Origin: a virus
Taxonomy: Duplodnaviria; Heunggongvirae; Uroviricota; Caudoviricetes
IMG/VR virus record: IMGVR_UViG_2778261424_000010
Coordinates: 1-41,171 of that record
Reading direction: 5' to 3' (one strand)
DNA length: 41,171 bases
Shown: positions 1 to 41,171 of the stretch, piece after piece
Layout: each line of letters opens with the position of its first letter
How positions within the stretch are numbered: the stretch's first letter is position 1
The notes under the pieces: model-generated
Database searches by the model: none
Told to the model about the DNA's origin: nothing
The model's input: the letters and a program-made list of their open reading frames with translations, nothing else
Position numbers and translations under genes: made by a program

Positions 1-1194
1 ATGATCACCGACACAAAGCTCAGGAAGGCGCTCGGCAAGAAAAGAGATGATATCGAGATTATTTCTGATTCGCACGGGCTCAACGCCAGAATCAGCCAGG
101 CCGGAAAAATATCATTTTTCTATCGGTATCGCTGGGCCGGTAAAGCGGTAAAACTCAATGTTGGTGATTATCCTGCAATGAGTATCACCCAGGCAAGAGA
201 GCGTCGCCAACAATTCAGAAACTGGTTAACTGAGGGACTGGATCCGCGAGAGCAGGTGAAGCTGGATAAGCAGACCCGACAGGAAGCGATGTCCGTTGCC
301 GAAGCGTTCAATTACTGGATTGAAAGGCACTGTATCGCTAACGGGCTAGTTAAAGTCGATTACTATCGCCAGGTGTTTGAGAAACATATCGCCGAACCGA
401 TGAAGAATGTCAAAGTCGATAACACAGCGAAAATGCACTGGATCAACGTCTTCGATTCTATAGAAAGCAGGGTGATGGCTCATTACATGCTTTCGCTGTG
501 CAAACGGGCGTTTAGGTTCTGCGTTAACAGAAGTGTGATCGCCTCAAACCCACTCGAGGGATTACTGCCATCTGATGTCGGGCAAAAGCCTAAAAAGAGA
601 ACTCGCAGGATGGACGATGACGATCTGCGCAAAATCTATCAGTGGTTGAAAAGCCATATGTCGATAGAGTCCGTTTTCCTGGTGAAATTTATTATGCTTA
701 CCGGATGCCGTACGGCTGAGATTCGACTTAGTGAGAGATCATGGTTTCGATTGGATGATAATGAGTGGGTCGTGCCTGCGGGCAGTTATAAAACTCGGGT
801 ACATATTAGAAGGGGACTCTCAGACGCCGCCGTTAACCTGGTCAGAAATCACCTCAAGAAAATAAACACCAATCACCTGGTGACTTCACAACGTAAAATT
901 GATGGCGGGATCAAAGATTCGCCCGTTCATTCACCTGTGGCATCCAATTACGCCCGTTCTATTTGGAATGGAACAGGTATGGCAGAGTGGTCGCTTCATG
1001 ATATGAGGCGGACGATAGCCACAAATCTCTCTGAGTTAGGTTGCCCGCCGCACGTAATTGAAAAGCTGCTCGGGCATCAGATGGTGGGGGTTATGGCGCA
1101 TTACAACCTTCATGACTATATCGATGATCAGAAACACTGGCTCCGCGTTTGGCAGAGCCATCTTGAAGAGATCATCGGAGAGCCCTTCAGTTAA
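1..1194 (+). CDS. int: Tyrosine recombinase / phage integrase (P4-type)
   Basis: 397-aa ORF; C-terminal catalytic region with R..H..R..Y pattern (HDMRRT, LLGH, YNLHDY); ORF begins at window base 1 so 5' end could lie upstream. Confidence 0.88.
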
Positions 1195-35076: not shown

Positions 35077-35421
35077 GTGAGACATTTACTTTGCACTGTT
35101 ACCGTGTTCGCGGTGCTTATATCAGCACCCGCTTTTGCGGATCAGCAATGTGGTGATTTTAAAATCCATTGGGCAGATGATGGCTTAGCCAGAATCAATG
35201 GCGCAAAGCCAGAAATGCAAAAAATCACCTTCCTGAAAAACAAAGGCGATTATAACAATATCAAGATGGATTGGCGTATGGCTACCGATCAGCCTGGAAG
35301 ATGGGTTGGTCTTGAGTACATCAATCGAAACGGCAAAGCCATTCTCAACGCACAGTGGTTGCAAGCCAGCATGGATTCGCCGCGTCAGTATGCAACATAC
35401 GACTGCCGAAAAGTAAAATAG
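35077..35421 (+). CDS. Cargo gene: secreted/periplasmic 114-aa protein with Sec signal peptide
   Basis: GTG start after GAGGTGGGG; signal peptide MRHLLCTVTVFAVLISAPAFA|DQQ; two Cys; AT-rich. Confidence 0.5.
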   Translation: MRHLLCTVTVFAVLISAPAFADQQCGDFKIHWADDGLARINGAKPEMQKITFLKNKGDYNNIKMDWRMATDQPGRWVGLEYINRNGKAILNAQWLQASMDSPRQYATYDCRKVK

Positions 35422-35439
35422 CCCGCCAGATAGGCGGGC
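35411..35439 (-). terminator. Rho-independent terminator for minus-strand cargo gene
   Basis: GCCCGCC-AGATAG-GCGGGC hairpin with U-tract on minus strand. Confidence 0.45.
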
Positions 35440-35444
35440 ATGCG

Positions 35445-35735
35445 TCAAAAATATTGAGCTTTAATTATAATAAACACAATAATTACGAACAGGATGTTTC
35501 TAATTATTTTTTGCTTATGAGTAAGTTGTTTTTTTTCTGTCGATTTCCCGGGAGAGTAAAGGTTAGTGGTATGCGACAGCCCCGTGCCGGGAAGGCCATT
35601 TGTCATCTTTACGCCTTTTTTTCCGATGTTAATGGTGGAACCTTTACCACCAATTGAAGTGCTTACTCCGCTTTTACTAATGTTGATCGCGAGTCCGGGC
35701 GCAATCCGGATTCTTTTACGAAATCTAAATCCCAT
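35445..35735 (-). CDS. Cargo gene: DUF4236-like small protein with C-terminal hydrophobic anchor
   Basis: MGFRFRKRIRIAPGLAINISKSGVSTSIGGKG N-terminus (DUF4236-like by memory); C-terminal ILFVIIVFIIIKAQYF; very AT-rich. Confidence 0.5.
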   Translation of the reverse strand: MGFRFRKRIRIAPGLAINISKSGVSTSIGGKGSTINIGKKGVKMTNGLPGTGLSHTTNLYSPGKSTEKKQLTHKQKIIRNILFVIIVFIIIKAQYF

Positions 35736-35957: not shown

Positions 35958-36695
35958 ATGCCAATTCCAACTCAATCACAGATCGGGGGTGAGCAGCAGA
36001 CCGCGCAGGCCATTGCCGATTCGGTGTCTACCCAGATGCGCGTAGCGATGCCCGGCATCATTCAGTCGTTCGATCCTGACACTGTTACCTGCACAGTAGA
36101 GGTAGCGCTTCGCGGTATTGTTGGCGATGGCTCCACCGAATTAAAACCGCTGGTGGATGTGCCGGTTATCTTCCCGCGCGGCGGCGGTTGCACGCTGACC
36201 TTTCCGGTAAAAGAAGGCGACGAGTGCCTGCTGATCTTTGCCGACCGTTGCATCGATTTCTGGTGGCAGAGCGGCGGCGTTCAGGAGACCGTCGACCCGC
36301 GCCAGCATGACTTATCTGATGCGTTCGCCATCGTTGGCCCGCAGTCGAAAGCGCAGAAAATAAGCGGTATCAGTACCAGCGCCGCGCAGCTGCGCAGCGA
36401 CGACGGAAGCTCGTTCTTTGAGCTCAACCCCACTACGCAGAAAATTAAAATCGTAGCGCCTGGCGGTCTGGAAGTGGTTACCCCGCTGGCCGACTTCTCG
36501 GCGAAAGTTACCATTCACGGGCTCCTTTCCTGGCTTGGTGGAATGGTGGGTTCTGTTGCTTCTGGCGTTGCATCCAAAATCACTGGCGCTGTCGAGTTTA
36601 TCGGCACCGTTAAAGCTAACGGTAAGTCAATTGATGATACGCACACTCATGGAGGCGTGCAGCATGGCACCAGCAACACAGACGGGGTGAACTGA
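35958..36695 (+). CDS. Baseplate spike / gpV-like protein
   Basis: 245-aa ORF; position before gpW/gpJ-like genes. Confidence 0.5.
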   Translation: MPIPTQSQIGGEQQTAQAIADSVSTQMRVAMPGIIQSFDPDTVTCTVEVALRGIVGDGSTELKPLVDVPVIFPRGGGCTLTFPVKEGDECLLIFADRCIDFWWQSGGVQETVDPRQHDLSDAFAIVGPQSKAQKISGISTSAAQLRSDDGSSFFELNPTTQKIKIVAPGGLEVVTPLADFSAKVTIHGLLSWLGGMVGSVASGVASKITGAVEFIGTVKANGKSIDDTHTHGGVQHGTSNTDGVN

Positions 36696-37048
36696 TGCGA
36701 TACAGACGTGAAGACGCCGACGGTGATTACACTTTCGGGCAGGGTGACGATACTTTCCTTATCGACAGTCCGGAATGTGTCGCCCAGGCAGTAAAAACCC
36801 GCTTCGAGCTGTGGCGCGGTCAGTGGTTTCTCGATCTGACGGAAGGCACGCCGTATGTTCAGTCGGTGCTTGGTAAACAGCGATCTGACGTCTACATCCT
36901 GGCTATACGTGAACGCATACAGGACACACCGGGCGTTCTGTCGATTCTTTCCTTCGATACCAATTATGACGGCACCAGCCGTCGCGTCACCTTCACTTCC
37001 TCCATTGACACAATCTACGGCCAGACGACTGTAACAAGCGAGGCATAA
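36695..37048 (+). CDS. Baseplate wedge protein (gpW/gp25-like)
   Basis: 117-aa ORF coupled to gpJ-like gene. Confidence 0.5.
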   Translation: MRYRREDADGDYTFGQGDDTFLIDSPECVAQAVKTRFELWRGQWFLDLTEGTPYVQSVLGKQRSDVYILAIRERIQDTPGVLSILSFDTNYDGTSRRVTFTSSIDTIYGQTTVTSEA

Positions 37049-38248
37049 ATGGCTTTGAACCTCGACACGCTGGGGCTATCGGCAACGGTAACCGCCCAGG
37101 GGATTAGTGCGCCTGATTACCAGACAATCCTTGATACACTGACCAGCTATTTCAGGCAGATTTACGGTAGTGATGCCTACCTCGAACCAGACAGCAAAGA
37201 TGGGCAAATGGTCGCGCTGGTGGCTCTTGCGGTGCATGACGCTAACAATACCGCTATCGAGATCTACAACTCTTTTTCACCGACGACAGCGCAGGCCGCA
37301 GCGCTTAGCAACAATGTGAAAATTAACGGGATCACGCGAAAAGTAGCGACAAACTCTACTGCTGACCTTCTGTTAACCGGTACGGCAGGCACGACTATCA
37401 CGAATGGCTCCGCACGGGATAAAAACGGCATTATCTGGAATTTTCCAGCGAGTGTGGCGATCGGCGTTGATGGTACTGTGCTGGTGACGGCCACATGTGC
37501 GAATAGCGGTTCGGTTGCGGCGCTGGCCGGGACTATTACCACTATCAACACCCCGACCCGAGGTTGGGTGTCGGTAACCAATCCAGTTGCGGCTACTGTC
37601 GGTTCACCAGCCGAAACCGACGCAGAGCTGCGCATTCGGCAGGGGCAAAGCGTCGCGCTACCATCGATCACACCGTTTGAAGGTGTCGACGGTGCTATCG
37701 CTAATGTTGCTGGCGTGACACGTCACAAACTATATGAGAACGACACTGGGGCAACCGACAGCAACGGGCTGCCGCCACACTCTATTTCCGCCATCGTCGA
37801 TGGAGGGGATGTTACCGAGATAGCCCAGACCATCAGGGGGAATAAAGGGCAGGGAACCGCAACTTACGGTAAAACTTCTGTCACAGTGCCGGATACTTAT
37901 GGTAATCCTCACGTCATCAGTTTTTCGCGCTCTACCGATGTGCCAATTTTCGTAGCCATTACCCTGAAAGTTTTTACCGGCTATACCTCTCAAATCGGCG
38001 AGCAGATTAAACAGGCTGTTGCCGATTATATAAATGGCCTAACAATTGGCGACGACGTTCTGCTGAGCCGTATTTATTCCCCGGCAAACCTCGGCGTTGT
38101 GAGCGGCGGGAATGCCCGCTATTACGATATTACCGACCTGCTGATCGGTAAGTCGTCTGGCAGCGTATCGGCATCAAACATTGATATTGCCTATGATGCT
38201 TCAGCGTCCTGTAGCACCGCGAATATCAGTATCACGGTGACCTCATGA
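37049..38248 (+). CDS. Baseplate J-like protein
   Basis: 399-aa ORF; canonical order W-J-I. Confidence 0.55.
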   Translation: MALNLDTLGLSATVTAQGISAPDYQTILDTLTSYFRQIYGSDAYLEPDSKDGQMVALVALAVHDANNTAIEIYNSFSPTTAQAAALSNNVKINGITRKVATNSTADLLLTGTAGTTITNGSARDKNGIIWNFPASVAIGVDGTVLVTATCANSGSVAALAGTITTINTPTRGWVSVTNPVAATVGSPAETDAELRIRQGQSVALPSITPFEGVDGAIANVAGVTRHKLYENDTGATDSNGLPPHSISAIVDGGDVTEIAQTIRGNKGQGTATYGKTSVTVPDTYGNPHVISFSRSTDVPIFVAITLKVFTGYTSQIGEQIKQAVADYINGLTIGDDVLLSRIYSPANLGVVSGGNARYYDITDLLIGKSSGSVSASNIDIAYDASASCSTANISITVTS

Positions 38249-38925
38249 GCAAATACACCGAACTGATCACTAACTACCACGCTACCAAGCCACTCTTTTT
38301 TGACCATATAGATCTGAGCACCCGCCCGCTGATTGATGTGTCCAGCACTATGTCAGGGCTTATAACAGCCTTCGATATCGATACTGCTGTCGGTGTACAG
38401 CTCGACATCCTCGGTCTGTGGATCGGACGCAGTCGCATAGTCAGCCAGCCAATTGGCGGAGTTTATTTCAGCTGGGACACTGACGGGCTTGGGTATGACC
38501 AGGGCATCTGGCAAGGGCCATATGATCCTGATTCTGGCTATACGACGCTAAGCGATGAGACGTACCGCATCATTCTGAAAGCGAAAATCGCTATCAACAA
38601 CTGGGACGGTCGGAACGACTCTCTGCCTCCCATCCTTGACGCTGCTACCGCAGGCTCAGGCCTGAGGATGCAGATCGTCGACAACCAGGACATGACGATT
38701 TCGGTCTGGGTTTTCCCTGAAACTGATATTTCTGATGTGTCTCTCGAACTGATCGCCGCTATCAAACAGGGCTATCTCACCGTTAAATCAGCTGGCGTAT
38801 GGGCCGGTGATGTTGAAACGCCTTCGGTAGAAACACCGTCAGAAGGCTCTAAATTCTTTGGGTTTGATATGGATAACGAATACATCGGCGGGTTCGATGT
38901 TGGAGCATGGGGGACAATACTCTAA
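38245..38925 (+). CDS. Baseplate/tail protein gpI-like (DUF2612-like)
   Basis: 226-aa ORF between J-like and tail fibre. Confidence 0.45.
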   Translation: MSKYTELITNYHATKPLFFDHIDLSTRPLIDVSSTMSGLITAFDIDTAVGVQLDILGLWIGRSRIVSQPIGGVYFSWDTDGLGYDQGIWQGPYDPDSGYTTLSDETYRIILKAKIAINNWDGRNDSLPPILDAATAGSGLRMQIVDNQDMTISVWVFPETDISDVSLELIAAIKQGYLTVKSAGVWAGDVETPSVETPSEGSKFFGFDMDNEYIGGFDVGAWGTIL

Positions 38926-39824
38926 TGGCAATAAACAACTTTAAACCTTTCGCGCTTGATCCGAACGCTAACGTCACCTCACAAGCTGACTGGGAAGCAC
39001 TTCCGGCTCTGCTTTCAGGGTTTACGGCAGGTAAAGCATCCAGCGCACAGGTCAACAAAGCTATTCGGCAAGCCAGCTTTATCGCGGCAGCGTTGGCGCA
39101 GTACACCGCCAACAAAAGCGGGCTGGATGTGCTTGATGATGGAGACCTGAACGGGTTTATATCCAAAATGGGGACCGCTTTCGGGAAAGATTTCCAGGCG
39201 CTTGATGCCACGCTGTCGGCATTAGCTGGGCTCGCAACAGGTGCAAATAAACTCCCATATTTCACTGGAAATGATACAGCAGCGCAGACTGATTTAACTT
39301 CTGTTGGCCGTGACATTATTGGGAAAAATACTATTGCTGACATTCTCACATACCTTGGTTTGGGAGAAACGATAAATAAAGCCTCCGGAGCTATGCAGAA
39401 ATCGGCTAATGGAGCTGATATTTCTGATGTATCAGCCTTCCGAAATGCGCTCCAGTTAGGGACCGCAGCAACACGAGATGTTGGAGCAGATAATGCCTCG
39501 AAGTTACTGGATTTAGACAGCTTCAGGTCAATGATGTCAGGGAATGGCTACATCTACATTCCATGCATTGCGACGACAGGAAACCCGGTGAAACTTATGT
39601 TGCAGTGGGGAACGGTGGCAACACAAAAGGGAGCTGATGCTGGATATGCCTTACCATTTGCTTTTCCCTATGCAGGCTTATTTGCGACCGGAAACCGTGG
39701 AACATCTGGCTACAATGCCGCGATGAATGTGCGTATTGCCAGCAGAACGCATATCAGTATTCAGAACTGGTCGCCATCCGGAGAGGGCACCGAAGATTGT
39801 TGTTTTATCGCGCTGGGGTATTAA
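38925..39824 (+). CDS. Tail fibre protein (constant N-terminus, variable C-terminus)
   Basis: Start overlaps upstream stop (TAATG); C-terminal region homologous to inverted cassette at 40265-40537; followed by tfa-like gene. Confidence 0.65.
   Translation: MAINNFKPFALDPNANVTSQADWEALPALLSGFTAGKASSAQVNKAIRQASFIAAALAQYTANKSGLDVLDDGDLNGFISKMGTAFGKDFQALDATLSALAGLATGANKLPYFTGNDTAAQTDLTSVGRDIIGKNTIADILTYLGLGETINKASGAMQKSANGADISDVSAFRNALQLGTAATRDVGADNASKLLDLDSFRSMMSGNGYIYIPCIATTGNPVKLMLQWGTVATQKGADAGYALPFAFPYAGLFATGNRGTSGYNAAMNVRIASRTHISIQNWSPSGEGTEDCCFIALGY
39343..39368. promoter_or_regulatory. Candidate Hin/Gin/Pin-type crossover site 1 (inside tail fibre gene)
   Basis: TTCTCACATACC-TT-GGTTTGGGAGAA; 12-2-12 quasi-palindrome; centre TT at codon positions 2-3 of CTT. 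Confidence 0.45.
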
Positions 39825-39826
39825 GA

Positions 39827-40237
39827 ATGAATAAATTTTATAAAGGCTCTTTCTATCCGAAAGCACTAAAAGAGGTATATATCAGCGCCGGTTCATGGCC
39901 TGAAAATGGCGTTGATGTTGATGATGAAACAATGGCAATTTACACAGGCGTAGCGCCACAAGGCAAAACGCTGGGGGCTGATAAAAATGGTAATCCTGCG
40001 TGGATTGATATCCCGCCACTCTCCGCTGAACAACAGATTATTCAGGCTGAACAGAAAAGAACGGTATTGCGTTCTATGGCTGATAAGGAAATAGTCTGGA
40101 GACAGGATGCTTTTGATGCGGAAATCGCGACGGCAGAAGAAACCGCCGCGTTATCTGAATGGAAAAAATACCGGGTGCTGCTGATGCGCGTTGATACCTC
40201 AAAAGCCCCCGATATTCTGTGGCCTCCGCAACCGTAA
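39827..40237 (+). CDS. Tail fibre assembly protein (Tfa-like)
   Basis: 137-aa ORF immediately after fibre gene; AT-rich. Confidence 0.55.
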   Translation: MNKFYKGSFYPKALKEVYISAGSWPENGVDVDDETMAIYTGVAPQGKTLGADKNGNPAWIDIPPLSAEQQIIQAEQKRTVLRSMADKEIVWRQDAFDAEIATAEETAALSEWKKYRVLLMRVDTSKAPDILWPPQP

Positions 40238-40240
40238 CAA

Positions 40241-40264
40241 AAAGCCGCTGTTTGCGGCTTTCTC
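40241..40264. terminator. Bidirectional rho-independent terminator
   Basis: AAAAAGCCGC-TGTT-TGCGGCTTT with T-rich flanks on both strands. Confidence 0.5.
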
Positions 40265-40537
40265 TTATATCCCCAGCGCAAGATAGGTGTAGCTGTCAAT
40301 ATTGTTTGCCGTACCGTTTCCACCCCAGCCATAGAGACTAAACCCGGTCTGCGTGTAATTAACAGATGTTACATACCGATGGTCAGCTGTGATTTTATGC
40401 GGAAGAACGATAAATGGGGTGACATTAAACGGTTTTTTAAAGCTTACCGTAGCATTGGTCGCCTGAACCGAGCCGTGCCCCCATTGCAGCAGCAATCCTC
40501 CCGGTAATTCAAAGTACCCATCAGCCTCCAGTAACCG
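40265..40537 (-). CDS. Silent alternative tail-fibre C-terminal cassette (inverted orientation)
   Basis: Minus-strand ORF aligns with fibre C-terminus (GY…LQWG…PF…ALG end); no credible independent start upstream (stop 11 codons before). Confidence 0.5.
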   Translation of the reverse strand, partial: RLLEADGYFELPGGLLLQWGHGSVQATNATVSFKKPFNVTPFIVLPHKITADHRYVTSVNYTQTGFSLYGWGGNGTANNIDSYTYLALGI

Positions 40538-40563
40538 TTCTCCAAATCCAACCTTTTTTATAA
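40538..40563. promoter_or_regulatory. Candidate Hin/Gin/Pin-type crossover site 2 (inverted relative to site 1)
   Basis: TTCTCCAAATCC-AA-CCTTTTTTATAA; left half matches reverse complement of site 1 right half at 10 of 12 positions; centre at codon positions 2-3 of GTT on minus strand. Confidence 0.45.
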
Positions 40564-40622
40564 CCATCAAAAATCTGGTGATGCTTCGCCGTTTCTCCTG
40601 TTTTCATAACAGGAGAAATCCC

Positions 40623-41171
40623 ATGATTTACGGTTATGCCCGAGTATCAACAAACCACCAGGACACTGAATTGCAACTAACGGCGCTCAAGTCAGCGGGT
40701 TGTGAGAAAATTTTTGAAGAGCATGCCAGCGGGAGGAAATCGAATCGGCCGGTTCTAAAACGGCTGATCGCCACTATGCAGCCGGGGGATGAACTGGTGG
40801 TCTGGAAGCTGGACAGGATAGGCCGCAACGTTCTGCATGCGCTGTTGATGTTCCAGCAGTTACAGGAAAAGGGTATCAACTTCCGCAGTATTACCGATGG
40901 CGTGGATCTCAAAACAGCCAGCGGCCGCTATAACTTTCGTAACATCCTTTCCGCAGCACAATATGAATCTGATCTTAATAGCGAACGTACCTTAGCAGGG
41001 CTGGCCGTAGCCAGGGCAAAAGGGCGAGTTGGTGGTCGCAGGCCTAAGTTCACGGATGAGCAATGGCGGGAAATGGGGGAGCGGATGGCAACCGGTGAAT
41101 CACGACAAAGCGTATCAAAAACGTATGGAGTAGGGCTCTCAACTCTGTATAAAAAGTTTCCAGCTAGCTGA
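40623..41171 (+). CDS. Serine recombinase / DNA invertase (Hin/Gin/Cin/Pin family)
   Basis: MIYGYARVSTNHQ… N-terminus with catalytic Ser; C-terminal HTH; preceded by CTCCTGTT-TTCAT-AACAGGAG palindrome spanning the RBS. Confidence 0.85.
   Translation: MIYGYARVSTNHQDTELQLTALKSAGCEKIFEEHASGRKSNRPVLKRLIATMQPGDELVVWKLDRIGRNVLHALLMFQQLQEKGINFRSITDGVDLKTASGRYNFRNILSAAQYESDLNSERTLAGLAVARAKGRVGGRRPKFTDEQWREMGERMATGESRQSVSKTYGVGLSTLYKKFPAS

What the first reader, a model, noticed from the sequence alone, without database searches (positions are those of the whole stretch)
39343..40563. Candidate invertible tail-fibre host-range switch with in-frame crossover sites
The minus-strand ORF at 40265-40537 is homologous to the C-terminus of the plus-strand tail fibre (shared GY…LQWG…PF…ALG pattern) and lacks an independent start. 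Two 26-bp 12-2-12 quasi-palindromes resembling Hin/Gin/Cin/Pin crossover sites (recalled from memory) lie in inverted orientation: TTCTCACATACC-TT-GGTTTGGGAGAA inside the fibre gene (39343-39368) and TTCTCCAAATCC-AA-CCTTTTTTATAA at the 5' end of the silent cassette (40538-40563). The central dinucleotide occupies codon positions 2-3 in both reading frames (…LGLGE… versus …VGFGE…), so inversion of the ~1.2-kb segment would fuse the alternative C-terminus in frame. The serine invertase gene follows at 40623. Peculiarities: only one tfa-like gene is present, so the alternative fibre would lack a co-oriented assembly gene, and the variable segment is visibly more AT-rich than the constant part.
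Basis: partly seen in the sequence, partly recalled or inferred. Interest (0 to 1): 0.55.

Follow-up and report, generated by a model that had tools for sequence, protein, structure and literature searches.

The report
Invertible tail-fibre tip switch in prophage
This E. coli prophage carries a classic Pin/Gin-type flip-flop DNA segment that swaps the tip of its tail fibre.

Summary
Two 26-bp Hin/Gin/Pin-type crossover sites lie at 39343-39368 and 40538-40563. They flank a 1.2-kb segment: fibre tip Sv, one tfa gene, and an opposite-strand tip Sv'. A 182-aa serine invertase follows, 55% identical to PinE and 52% to Gin.

They are the only two hits in the 41-kb window at my scan threshold. The same scan recovers the annotated Mu G boundaries.

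An E. coli contig (L019) is 100% identical over 4,439 nt to the window inverted in silico at the central dinucleotides. The predicted 238-aa recombinant fibre and the reciprocal 161-aa ORF both exist verbatim in public E. coli proteins.

The same segment (99.6-100% identical) also occurs in P2-like and Mu-like prophages. It is found in both orientations in the P2-like one.

Sv' is under purifying selection (dN/dS about 0.1), so it is not a decayed pseudogene.

The one unusual feature is real and conserved: Sv' never has its own assembly-chaperone gene.

Verdict: a genuine, recently flipped member of the known invertase host-range switch family. A host-range effect and Fis dependence remain inferred. 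Interest is low to moderate.

The parts
38925..39824 (+). Tail-fibre gene in the orientation of the window (299 aa). The constant N-terminal part runs from 38925 to 39356. The variable tip Sv runs from 39357 to 39824.
   Evidence: The ORF is. Pfam Gp53-like_C covers aa 224-299. PHROG tail-fibre families match. The identical protein sits on 22 public contigs. The stretch after the crossover aligns with Mu fibre S/S' in PDB 8JU3.
39343..39368 (.). Left 26-bp crossover site, TTCTCACATACC-TT-GGTTTGGGAGAA. The central TT is at 39355-39356.
   Evidence: It has 1 mismatch to the Hin-family consensus, with 0.01 hits expected by chance. It scores 19/20 in the half-site scan. Its inner half plus core, TTGGTTTGGGAGAA, is identical to the e14 P-segment repeat (PMC12529663). 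Homology to other phages and genomes breaks here.
39357..40549 (.). Invertible segment of 1,193 bp between the two central dinucleotides. It holds Sv, tfa, a terminator and Sv'.
   Evidence: It is 99.7-99.8% identical to a segment in P2-like E. coli prophages, found there in both orientations. Its Sv' part is 99.6% identical in Mu-like prophages. The flipped copy in the same prophage is 100% identical.
39827..40237 (+). The single tail-fibre assembly (Tfa) gene, 136 aa, co-oriented with Sv.
   Evidence: Pfam Caudo_TAP, E 2.3e-36. phrog_188, E 3.4e-45.
40241..40261 (.). GC-rich hairpin between the convergent tfa and Sv'. It is a likely terminator that would end fibre-operon transcription in either orientation.
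   Evidence: The terminator-like scan gives 8 pairs, 5 of them G-C. Inverted repeat I10 covers it. The function is inferred.
40265..40549 (-). Alternative fibre tip Sv' (94 codons plus stop). It is promoterless in this orientation. The ORF continues to an ATG at 40567 outside the segment.
   Evidence: Pfam Gp53-like_C, E 1.3e-9. dN/dS is 0.09-0.12 with no gaps in diverged copies. It is found fused in frame to three different constant parts.
40538..40563 (.). Right 26-bp crossover site, TTCTCCAAATCC-AA-CCTTTTTTATAA. The central AA is at 40550-40551.
   Evidence: It is the second and last hit of the half-site scan in the whole window. The outer half and flank are shared with Omnitron. The HK225 invertase-locus match starts at window 40542, inside the site. 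The recombinant version TTATAAAAAAGG-TT-GGTTTGGGAGAA is seen in L021 and L022.
40592..40618 (+). Perfect 11-bp hairpin that sequesters the invertase Shine-Dalgarno sequence (AGGAGA).
   Evidence: Inverted repeat I18, 100% complementary. The fold that contains it has dG -16.0 kcal/mol. It is conserved in phi80-type loci with a T-A to C-G change of the outer pair. It is annotated as IR3 in phi80. The regulatory role is inferred.
40623..41171 (+). Serine DNA invertase (182 aa) of the PinL/phi80 subgroup. The window ends at its stop codon.
   Evidence: Pfam Resolvase plus HTH_7. It is 55% identical to PinE and 52% to Gin, without gaps. Gin structures 3UJ3 and 4M6F match at E 1e-56. The DNA is 95-99.7% identical to the HK225, mEp237 and phi80 pinL genes.

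Best explanation
This is a working Pin/Gin/Hin-type site-specific inversion switch in the tail-fibre gene of a complete-looking temperate myovirus prophage of E. coli.

Proposed mechanism:
- The serine invertase (40623-41171) binds the two 26-bp sites.
- It cuts both at the central TT/AA dinucleotide and rotates the 1,193-bp segment.
- One orientation encodes a 299-aa fibre (constant part plus Sv), followed by its Tfa chaperone.
- The other encodes a 238-aa fibre (constant part plus Sv'), with tfa and Sv now facing away from the late operon.
- A hairpin between tfa and Sv' probably ends the operon transcript in both states.

The expected result is a lysogen population that releases two kinds of virion with different receptor-binding tips.

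Shown: the anatomy of the sites, the in-frame fusion, the natural occurrence of both orientations with identical flanks, and selection on Sv'.

Inferred: catalysis by this prophage's own invertase, the switching rate, Fis/enhancer dependence, a different host range, and chaperone-independent folding of Sv'.
For: - Sites, frames and genes.
- Site statistics, and validation of the scan on the annotated Mu G boundaries and on e14.
- Same prophage in both orientations: L015 matches the window as given at 100%, and L019 matches the inverted window at 100% over 4,439 nt.
- Exact predicted recombinant proteins exist: P0023 (238 aa) and P0030 (161 aa).
- The reciprocal junction beside the invertase is 99.46% identical over 1,474 nt.
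- One P2-like prophage, with identical flanking protein ids, carries the segment in both orientations. The half-sites are exchanged reciprocally and the exchange is bounded to TTGG.
- At 100% junction identity there are 12 complete genomes in one orientation and 6 in the other.
- The invertase is intact, with the YARVST catalytic-serine motif, and aligns with Gin and PinE without gaps.
- Sv' gives dN/dS of 0.09-0.12.
- The window encodes integrase, portal, major capsid, a DUF3383 protein, an SLT-domain protein and baseplate proteins.
- Published precedent: the e14, Mu and P2-like fibre segments flip in cultures (PMC4272514).
Against: - No read-level evidence shows both orientations within one culture.
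- The recombinational enhancer could not be recognised. No pair of Fis-like motifs 48 bp apart lies in the 5' part of the gene, unlike gin. PinE also fails this crude test.
- The right site is a weak palindrome.
- The Sv' state has no co-oriented tfa, so that fibre could misfold.
- Inversion can be done in trans by other Pin enzymes of the host (PMC12529663). The observed flips therefore do not prove that this invertase is the active one.
Confidence: 0.88

Rival explanations
1. The switch is on/off rather than A/B. The Sv' orientation yields a fibre that cannot fold because no Tfa is co-expressed. Flipped lysogens would then release non-infectious or fibre-less particles, or the state is simply tolerated in the prophage.
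For: Only one tfa gene is present. By my recollection of North et al. 2019, which I did not read here, Tfa N-terminal domains are fibre-specific. No record among 50,697 phage genomes carries a close Sv' relative. In this backbone the flipped state is the minority: 1-2 contigs against 10-22, and 1 complete genome against 22.
Against: Sv' is under strong purifying selection with no indels (dN/dS about 0.1). Sv' lacks a tfa in every context seen, paired with two different Sv+tfa partners (a 136-aa and a 141-aa tfa) and in three tail backbones. That pattern looks like a design, not a loss. The Sv'-expressing 191-aa fibre of the Mu-like prophage is listed in 184 blocks of the collection.
Confidence: 0.12
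2. The element is a frozen relic. The two orientations reflect past events or action by other resident Pin/Hin-family invertases, and this prophage's own invertase or enhancer no longer works.
For: The P2-like prophage flips although its invertase is a 36-aa remnant. PinQ, PinR and PinE invert e14 in trans (PMC12529663). The enhancer was not recognisable. The invertase differs from Gin and Hin at residues that control tetramer formation (PMC4513852).
Against: The invertase ORF is intact and 95-99.7% identical to the pinL genes of isolated phages. The flanks of the two orientations have zero substitutions over 4.4 kb, so the flip is very recent. Both sites are intact.
Confidence: 0.1
3. The main selected role is for the host, not the virion. 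The ORF that starts next to the invertase (MVIKKVG..., 100 aa with Sv' or 161 aa with Sv) is expressed as a free receptor-binding domain. It would block adsorption of other phages, as reported for e14 StfE2.
For: An in-frame ATG outside the segment creates an intact ORF in both orientations. Omnitron has the same ORF start. StfE2 of e14 has the same architecture, carries a Gp53-like domain and was reported to block T2 adsorption (PMC12529663).
Against: No Shine-Dalgarno sequence precedes the ATG (seen by eye). Promoter-like sites are not above chance (3 found, 2.7 expected). The prophage looks complete, so the virion role is sufficient.
Confidence: 0.08
4. The two sites are chance look-alikes, and the flipped copies arose by general (RecA) recombination or by assembly error.
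For: None beyond the weak palindromy of the right site.
Against: The shared inverted repeat is only 14 nt with 2 mismatches. The exchange is bounded to the 4 bp around the central dinucleotide in two independent backbones. The flipped state is present in complete long genomes.
Confidence: 0.01

Closest known systems
e14 P segment with PinE (E. coli K-12 cryptic prophage)
   Same: Both have 26-bp sites with a TT/AA core. The inner half plus core, TTGGTTTGGGAGAA, is identical (PMC12529663). Both fuse alternative fibre C-termini in frame. In both, the invertase gene lies immediately downstream on the same strand, and an ORF stub next to it starts outside the segment.
   Different: e14 has two convergent tfa genes (tfaP and tfaE) and a 1,797-bp segment. 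Here there is one tfa in 1,193 bp. The invertases are only 55% identical. e14 is a defective remnant, whereas this prophage looks complete.
Phage Mu G segment with Gin (also P1 C segment with Cin)
   Same: The layout is the same: constant part, site, variable tip, chaperone, inverted alternative tip, site, invertase. The fibre sequence around the crossover is homologous to Mu S. My scan recovers the annotated G boundaries.
   Different: The Mu sites have a TC/GA core, and its 3-kb segment carries U and U'. Gin is 52% identical. The tips here are short Gp53-like_C domains.
phi80 / HK225 / mEp237 pinL locus
   Same: The invertase gene is 95-99.7% identical at the DNA level, and the same hairpin sequesters the Shine-Dalgarno sequence (IR3).
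   Different: phi80 keeps only one site plus fibre pseudogene fragments, so it is a decayed system. The window has both sites and intact cassettes, in a myovirus tail module.
Citrobacter phage Omnitron (closest sequenced phage: 95% identity over 73% of the 25-kb query, window 16200-41171)
   Same: It has the same tail module, the same right-site outer half and the same invertase.
   Different: Omnitron carries the canonical four-gene segment Sv-tfa-tfa'-Sv', with a tail-collar-type Sv'.
Programmed gene-altering inversions found by systematic screens (Milman et al. 2023, PMC9881135; Goldberg et al. 2014, PMC4272514)
   Same: Tail-fibre genes, tfa genes and, specifically, 'DUF2612 domain-containing protein' neighbours are enriched at predicted programmed inversions. 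DUF2612 is the gene just upstream of this fibre gene.
   Different: In the passages I read, those screens report categories. They do not describe this module, its single-tfa layout or its spread over three tail backbones.

Membership tests
Hin/Gin/Cin/Pin DNA-invertase switch | A small serine recombinase of about 180-190 aa, with an N-terminal catalytic domain carrying the active-site serine and a C-terminal HTH | tested here: met
   Pfam Resolvase (E 3.6e-39) plus HTH_7. The YARVST motif is present. It aligns without gaps at 55% identity to PinE and 52% to Gin. Gin structures match at E 1e-56.
Hin/Gin/Cin/Pin DNA-invertase switch | Two 26-bp sites, each of two imperfect 12-bp inverted half-sites around a 2-bp core, in inverted orientation with matching cores | tested here: met
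   The core is TT on the + strand at the left site and TT on the - strand at the right site. The right site's outer half is weak (6/10 scored positions).
Hin/Gin/Cin/Pin DNA-invertase switch | Reciprocal exchange at the central dinucleotide that inverts the intervening DNA | tested here: met
   Natural recombinants are bounded to TTGG around the core in two backbones. Both reciprocal junctions are observed. The resolution is 4 bp, not 2.
Hin/Gin/Cin/Pin DNA-invertase switch | A Fis-bound recombinational enhancer in cis, normally in the 5' part of the invertase gene | tested here: inconclusive
   The crude Fis-motif scan finds a pair 48 bp apart in gin, but none in this gene or in pinE. The Fis motif is too degenerate to decide.
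Hin/Gin/Cin/Pin DNA-invertase switch | Both orientations coexist in a clonal population (phase variation) | not testable with these tools
   Only assemblies are available. Both orientations occur in different isolates with identical flanks.
Invertible tail-fibre host-range segments (Mu G, P1 C, e14 P type) | The crossover site lies inside the fibre ORF, so alternative C-terminal tips are fused in frame to a constant N-terminus | tested here: met
Invertible tail-fibre host-range segments (Mu G, P1 C, e14 P type) | Each alternative tip is followed by its own co-oriented assembly gene (U/U', tfaP/tfaE). This is typical of the family but not strictly defining. | tested here: not met
   There is one Caudo_TAP gene only. 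Sv' has no tfa in every context examined.
Invertible tail-fibre host-range segments (Mu G, P1 C, e14 P type) | The two orientations give virions with different host ranges | not testable with these tools
   Inferred from the two different Gp53-like_C tips.

The most novel reading that the evidence does not exclude
The [Sv + tfa | Sv'] module is an asymmetric variant of the invertible fibre cassette, and Sv' is a chaperone-independent tip. The module moves as a unit between unrelated tail backbones by recombination at the crossover sites (a DUF2612-type myovirus, P2-like and Mu-like prophages). In addition, the ORF that starts next to the invertase may be expressed in both states as a free receptor-binding domain that excludes other phages, as reported for e14 StfE2. 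The invertase also naturally carries Asn at the position of Hin Phe105, a substitution reported to allow Fis-independent inversion, so this subgroup might be regulated differently.
Probability: 0.15. Interest if true: 0.5.

Novelty: new member of a known kind. Interest (0 to 1): 0.25.

Why it matters
It is a clean, fully specified example of a tail-fibre inversion switch, confirmed to the nucleotide by natural variants. That makes it useful for annotating the many 'gp53-like domain-containing protein' fragments beside recombinase genes in Enterobacteriaceae genomes. It is also useful for phage host-range engineering, because the cassette is small and portable across three tail types. The conserved absence of a chaperone gene for one tip offers a simple test of whether a Gp53-like tip folds without Tfa. 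It does not change how these switches are understood.

Tried and rejected
- One search failed because the tfa coordinates were off by one; this was fixed. One search failed because several loci share one file; this was fixed.
- The repeat finder did not report the site pair, because the longest exact seed is only 6 nt.
- A genome-contig scan for either junction found nothing; that collection has one genome per species.
- A viral-contig scan gave 6 loci. Only one remnant (L009) has the Sv'-type junction.
- tblastn of Sv' against 50,697 phage records gave only Azospirillum phage Cd, at 34% identity.
- The search for homologous proteins with Sv' returned mostly the roughly 108-aa unfused forms and missed the fused ones. 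The exact look-up was the decisive route.
- The Fis-enhancer motif test was inconclusive.
- The promoter scan was not above chance, so there is no evidence for a leftward promoter that could express tfa in the flipped state.
- AlphaFold2 of Sv' with a shallow alignment gave pLDDT 47.8. The model is unusable, so no fold search was run.
- The carotovoricin Er paper (PMC100113) is not held.
- The RecA or chance explanation was rejected (see rival explanations).
Full report
**What is there**

The window runs from the ATG of a tyrosine integrase (1-1194) to the stop codon of a serine invertase (41171). In between it encodes a portal protein, a major capsid protein, a DUF3383 protein, an SLT-domain protein in the tape-measure position and baseplate proteins. 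It therefore looks like a complete temperate myovirus prophage.

Its closest sequenced phage is Citrobacter phage Omnitron, at 95% identity over 73% of the 25-kb query, window 16200-41171. An E. coli draft genome, GCA_002521755.1, holds a copy 100% identical over window 36000-41171.

The last genes are, in order:
- a DUF2612 wedge protein;
- a 299-aa fibre (38925-39824) ending in a Pfam Gp53-like_C domain;
- one Caudo_TAP assembly gene (39827-40237);
- a GC-rich hairpin (40241-40261);
- a minus-strand Gp53-like_C cassette (40265-40549);
- the invertase (40623-41171; Resolvase plus HTH_7).

**Check of the observation**

TTCTCACATACC-TT-GGTTTGGGAGAA lies at 39343-39368 and TTCTCCAAATCC-AA-CCTTTTTTATAA at 40538-40563.

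The classical consensus with up to 3 mismatches finds only the left site in the window, against 0.01 expected by chance. I also scored both half-sites against TTCTCNNAAACC. Only these two sites in 41 kb reach 14/20, and both also reach 15/20. Shuffled sequence gave a mean of 0.12 hits at 15/20.

The same scan was checked on records, not on memory. In phage Mu it returns exactly the two annotated G-segment boundaries. In E. coli K-12 e14 it returns the two P-segment sites inside stfP and stfE. The window's inner half plus core, TTGGTTTGGGAGAA, is identical to the e14 repeat published in PMC12529663.

The central dinucleotide is at codon positions 2-3 in both frames. Inverting 39357-40549 in silico gives an uninterrupted 238-aa fibre reading ...ADILTYLGFGERLLEADGYFELPGG...LALGI.

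1. The cassette ORF does have an in-frame ATG and TTG just outside the segment, and it is annotated as a 100-aa CDS in public genomes. I saw no Shine-Dalgarno sequence in front of it.
2. The right site is a poor palindrome.
3. Direct Sv/Sv' similarity is weak, although both pass the same Pfam model.
4. The GC drop is small: 47.6% in the segment, 49.8% in the constant fibre part and 53.0% overall.

**Has it flipped?**

Yes. An exact-sequence look-up found the predicted 238-aa recombinant fibre verbatim in E. coli (WP_163450090.1 / NEY64001.1). It also found the predicted reciprocal ORF next to the invertase (161 aa, MVIKKVGLGETINK...) verbatim (WP_204251392.1).

The contig that carries the recombinant fibre (L019, GCA_011008655.1) is 100.000% identical over 4,439 nt to the in-silico inverted window, up to the contig end. 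Its site reads TTCTCACATACC-TT-GGATTTGGAGAA, the predicted hybrid.

The other junction is seen in the complete chromosome CP021535.1. There the invertase, the right site, Sv and tfa match the inverted window at 99.46% over 1,474 nt. The site reads TTATAAAAAAGG-TT-GGTTTGGGAGAA. The outer half-sites differ at their innermost bases and the inner half-sites differ from their third base. The exchange is therefore bounded to the four bases TTGG, which include the central TT.

**The segment in other prophages**

The same 1.2-kb segment (99.7-99.8% identical) sits in a P2-like prophage. Strains 005008 and Y5 carry that prophage with identical flanking proteins but opposite segment orientations. The half-sites are swapped reciprocally, and both fusions are annotated as intact genes.

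Among complete E. coli genomes, 12 have one junction and 6 the other at 100% identity. That prophage keeps only a 36-aa invertase stub, so the flipping there is presumably done in trans. PinQ, PinR and PinE do this on e14 (PMC12529663).

A third backbone also carries the module: Mu/SfV-like prophages with gp45-48 homologues, where Sv' is expressed as a 191-aa fibre. Matches to other phages and genomes start or stop at the sites. This shows that cassettes are exchanged between phages there.

**Is Sv' alive?**

Three versions of Sv', 83-88% identical at the DNA level, align without gaps and give dN/dS of 0.09-0.12. Sixteen protein versions down to 80% identity keep 55 invariant positions. This refutes the decayed-pseudogene alternative.

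**The single tfa**

This peculiarity is real and conserved. Sv' has no co-oriented tfa in any of the three backbones. The same holds in a different segment where its partner is another tip with a different, 141-aa tfa (L020). A sister segment in this same phage lineage pairs Sv+tfa with another tip, followed by a 77-aa ORF that resembles only the start of a tfa. Omnitron has the canonical four genes.

Because the partners differ, I infer that Sv' folds without a dedicated chaperone rather than borrowing its partner's. This is inference only. The structure prediction was too poor to help.

**Mechanism and membership**

The invertase aligns with Gin and PinE over its whole length without gaps and keeps the catalytic-serine motif. 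It belongs to the phi80 PinL subgroup. The features tested for the DNA-invertase family are met, except two. The Fis enhancer could not be decided. The two-chaperone layout is not met, but it is typical of the family rather than defining.

Fibre inversions of this family are known to flip in cultures (PMC4272514). A systematic screen already found DUF2612-neighbouring fibre genes enriched among programmed inversions (PMC9881135).

**Verdict**

The element is a recently active member of a textbook class. The only non-standard trait is the asymmetric, single-chaperone cassette, which is shared by three tail types. Host-range change, activity of this prophage's own invertase, and Fis dependence remain to be shown.

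Noticed in passing
window 40592-40618: A perfect 11-bp hairpin (dG about -16 kcal/mol) buries the invertase Shine-Dalgarno sequence AGGAGA. It is conserved in phi80-type loci, where it is annotated IR3, with a compensatory T-A to C-G change of the outer pair. It probably keeps invertase translation low.
   Followed up: partly
window 40623-41171 (invertase aa 103-114): Aligned to Gin, helix E reads Y103 N104 F105 R106 N107 I108 ... Y114, where Gin has F F F H V M ... M. N104 corresponds to Hin Phe105 and I108 to Hin Met109. PMC4513852 reports that F105N and several residue-109 substitutions allow Fis-independent inversion, so this PinL subgroup may be controlled differently.
   Followed up: partly
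window 40550-40570, minus strand: The flank outside the right site supplies an in-frame TTG-ATG (MMVIKKVG...). Whichever cassette abuts the invertase therefore forms an intact ORF (100 aa or 161 aa). Omnitron has the same start. The layout is the same as e14 StfE2, which was reported to block T2 adsorption (PMC12529663).
   Followed up: partly
L001 / L002 (E. coli 005008 and Y5, P2-like prophage): The same segment occurs in both orientations although the adjacent recombinase gene is only a 36-aa remnant. This implies inversion in trans by another resident Pin-family enzyme, or truncation after the flip.
   Followed up: partly
L021 / L022 and L020: Sister invertible segments exist in the same phage lineage. 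One is [Sv+tfa | 77-aa truncated tfa-like ORF + a different tip]. The other is [Sv' | 141-aa tfa + a third Gp53-like tip]. Halves of segments are reshuffled independently.
   Followed up: partly
L019 (GCA_011008655.1 contig JAAIWE010000061.1): The contig that carries the flipped state ends inside the invertible segment. A short-read assembly break there may reflect a culture of mixed orientation.
   Followed up: no
window 35077-35735: Two small genes interrupt the baseplate operon. One is a 114-aa ORF whose hydrophobic N-terminus looks like a signal peptide (35077-35421, +). The other is a DUF4236 gene on the opposite strand (35445-35735, -). They look like moron insertions.
   Followed up: no
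window 1-1194 and 41171; L015 / L021 flanks: The window starts at the integrase ATG and ends at the invertase stop, so attL and attR are not included. In public genomes the invertase end abuts the host YCII and 4HBT thioesterase genes.
   Followed up: no
L005 (E. coli ECO3183) and L006 (strain 873.10): Relatives of the prophage show decayed forms of the switch. In one, the fibre and tfa are kept but Sv' and the invertase are lost, next to an IntS prophage. In the other, the fibre gene is truncated and the invertase frameshifted.
   Followed up: no
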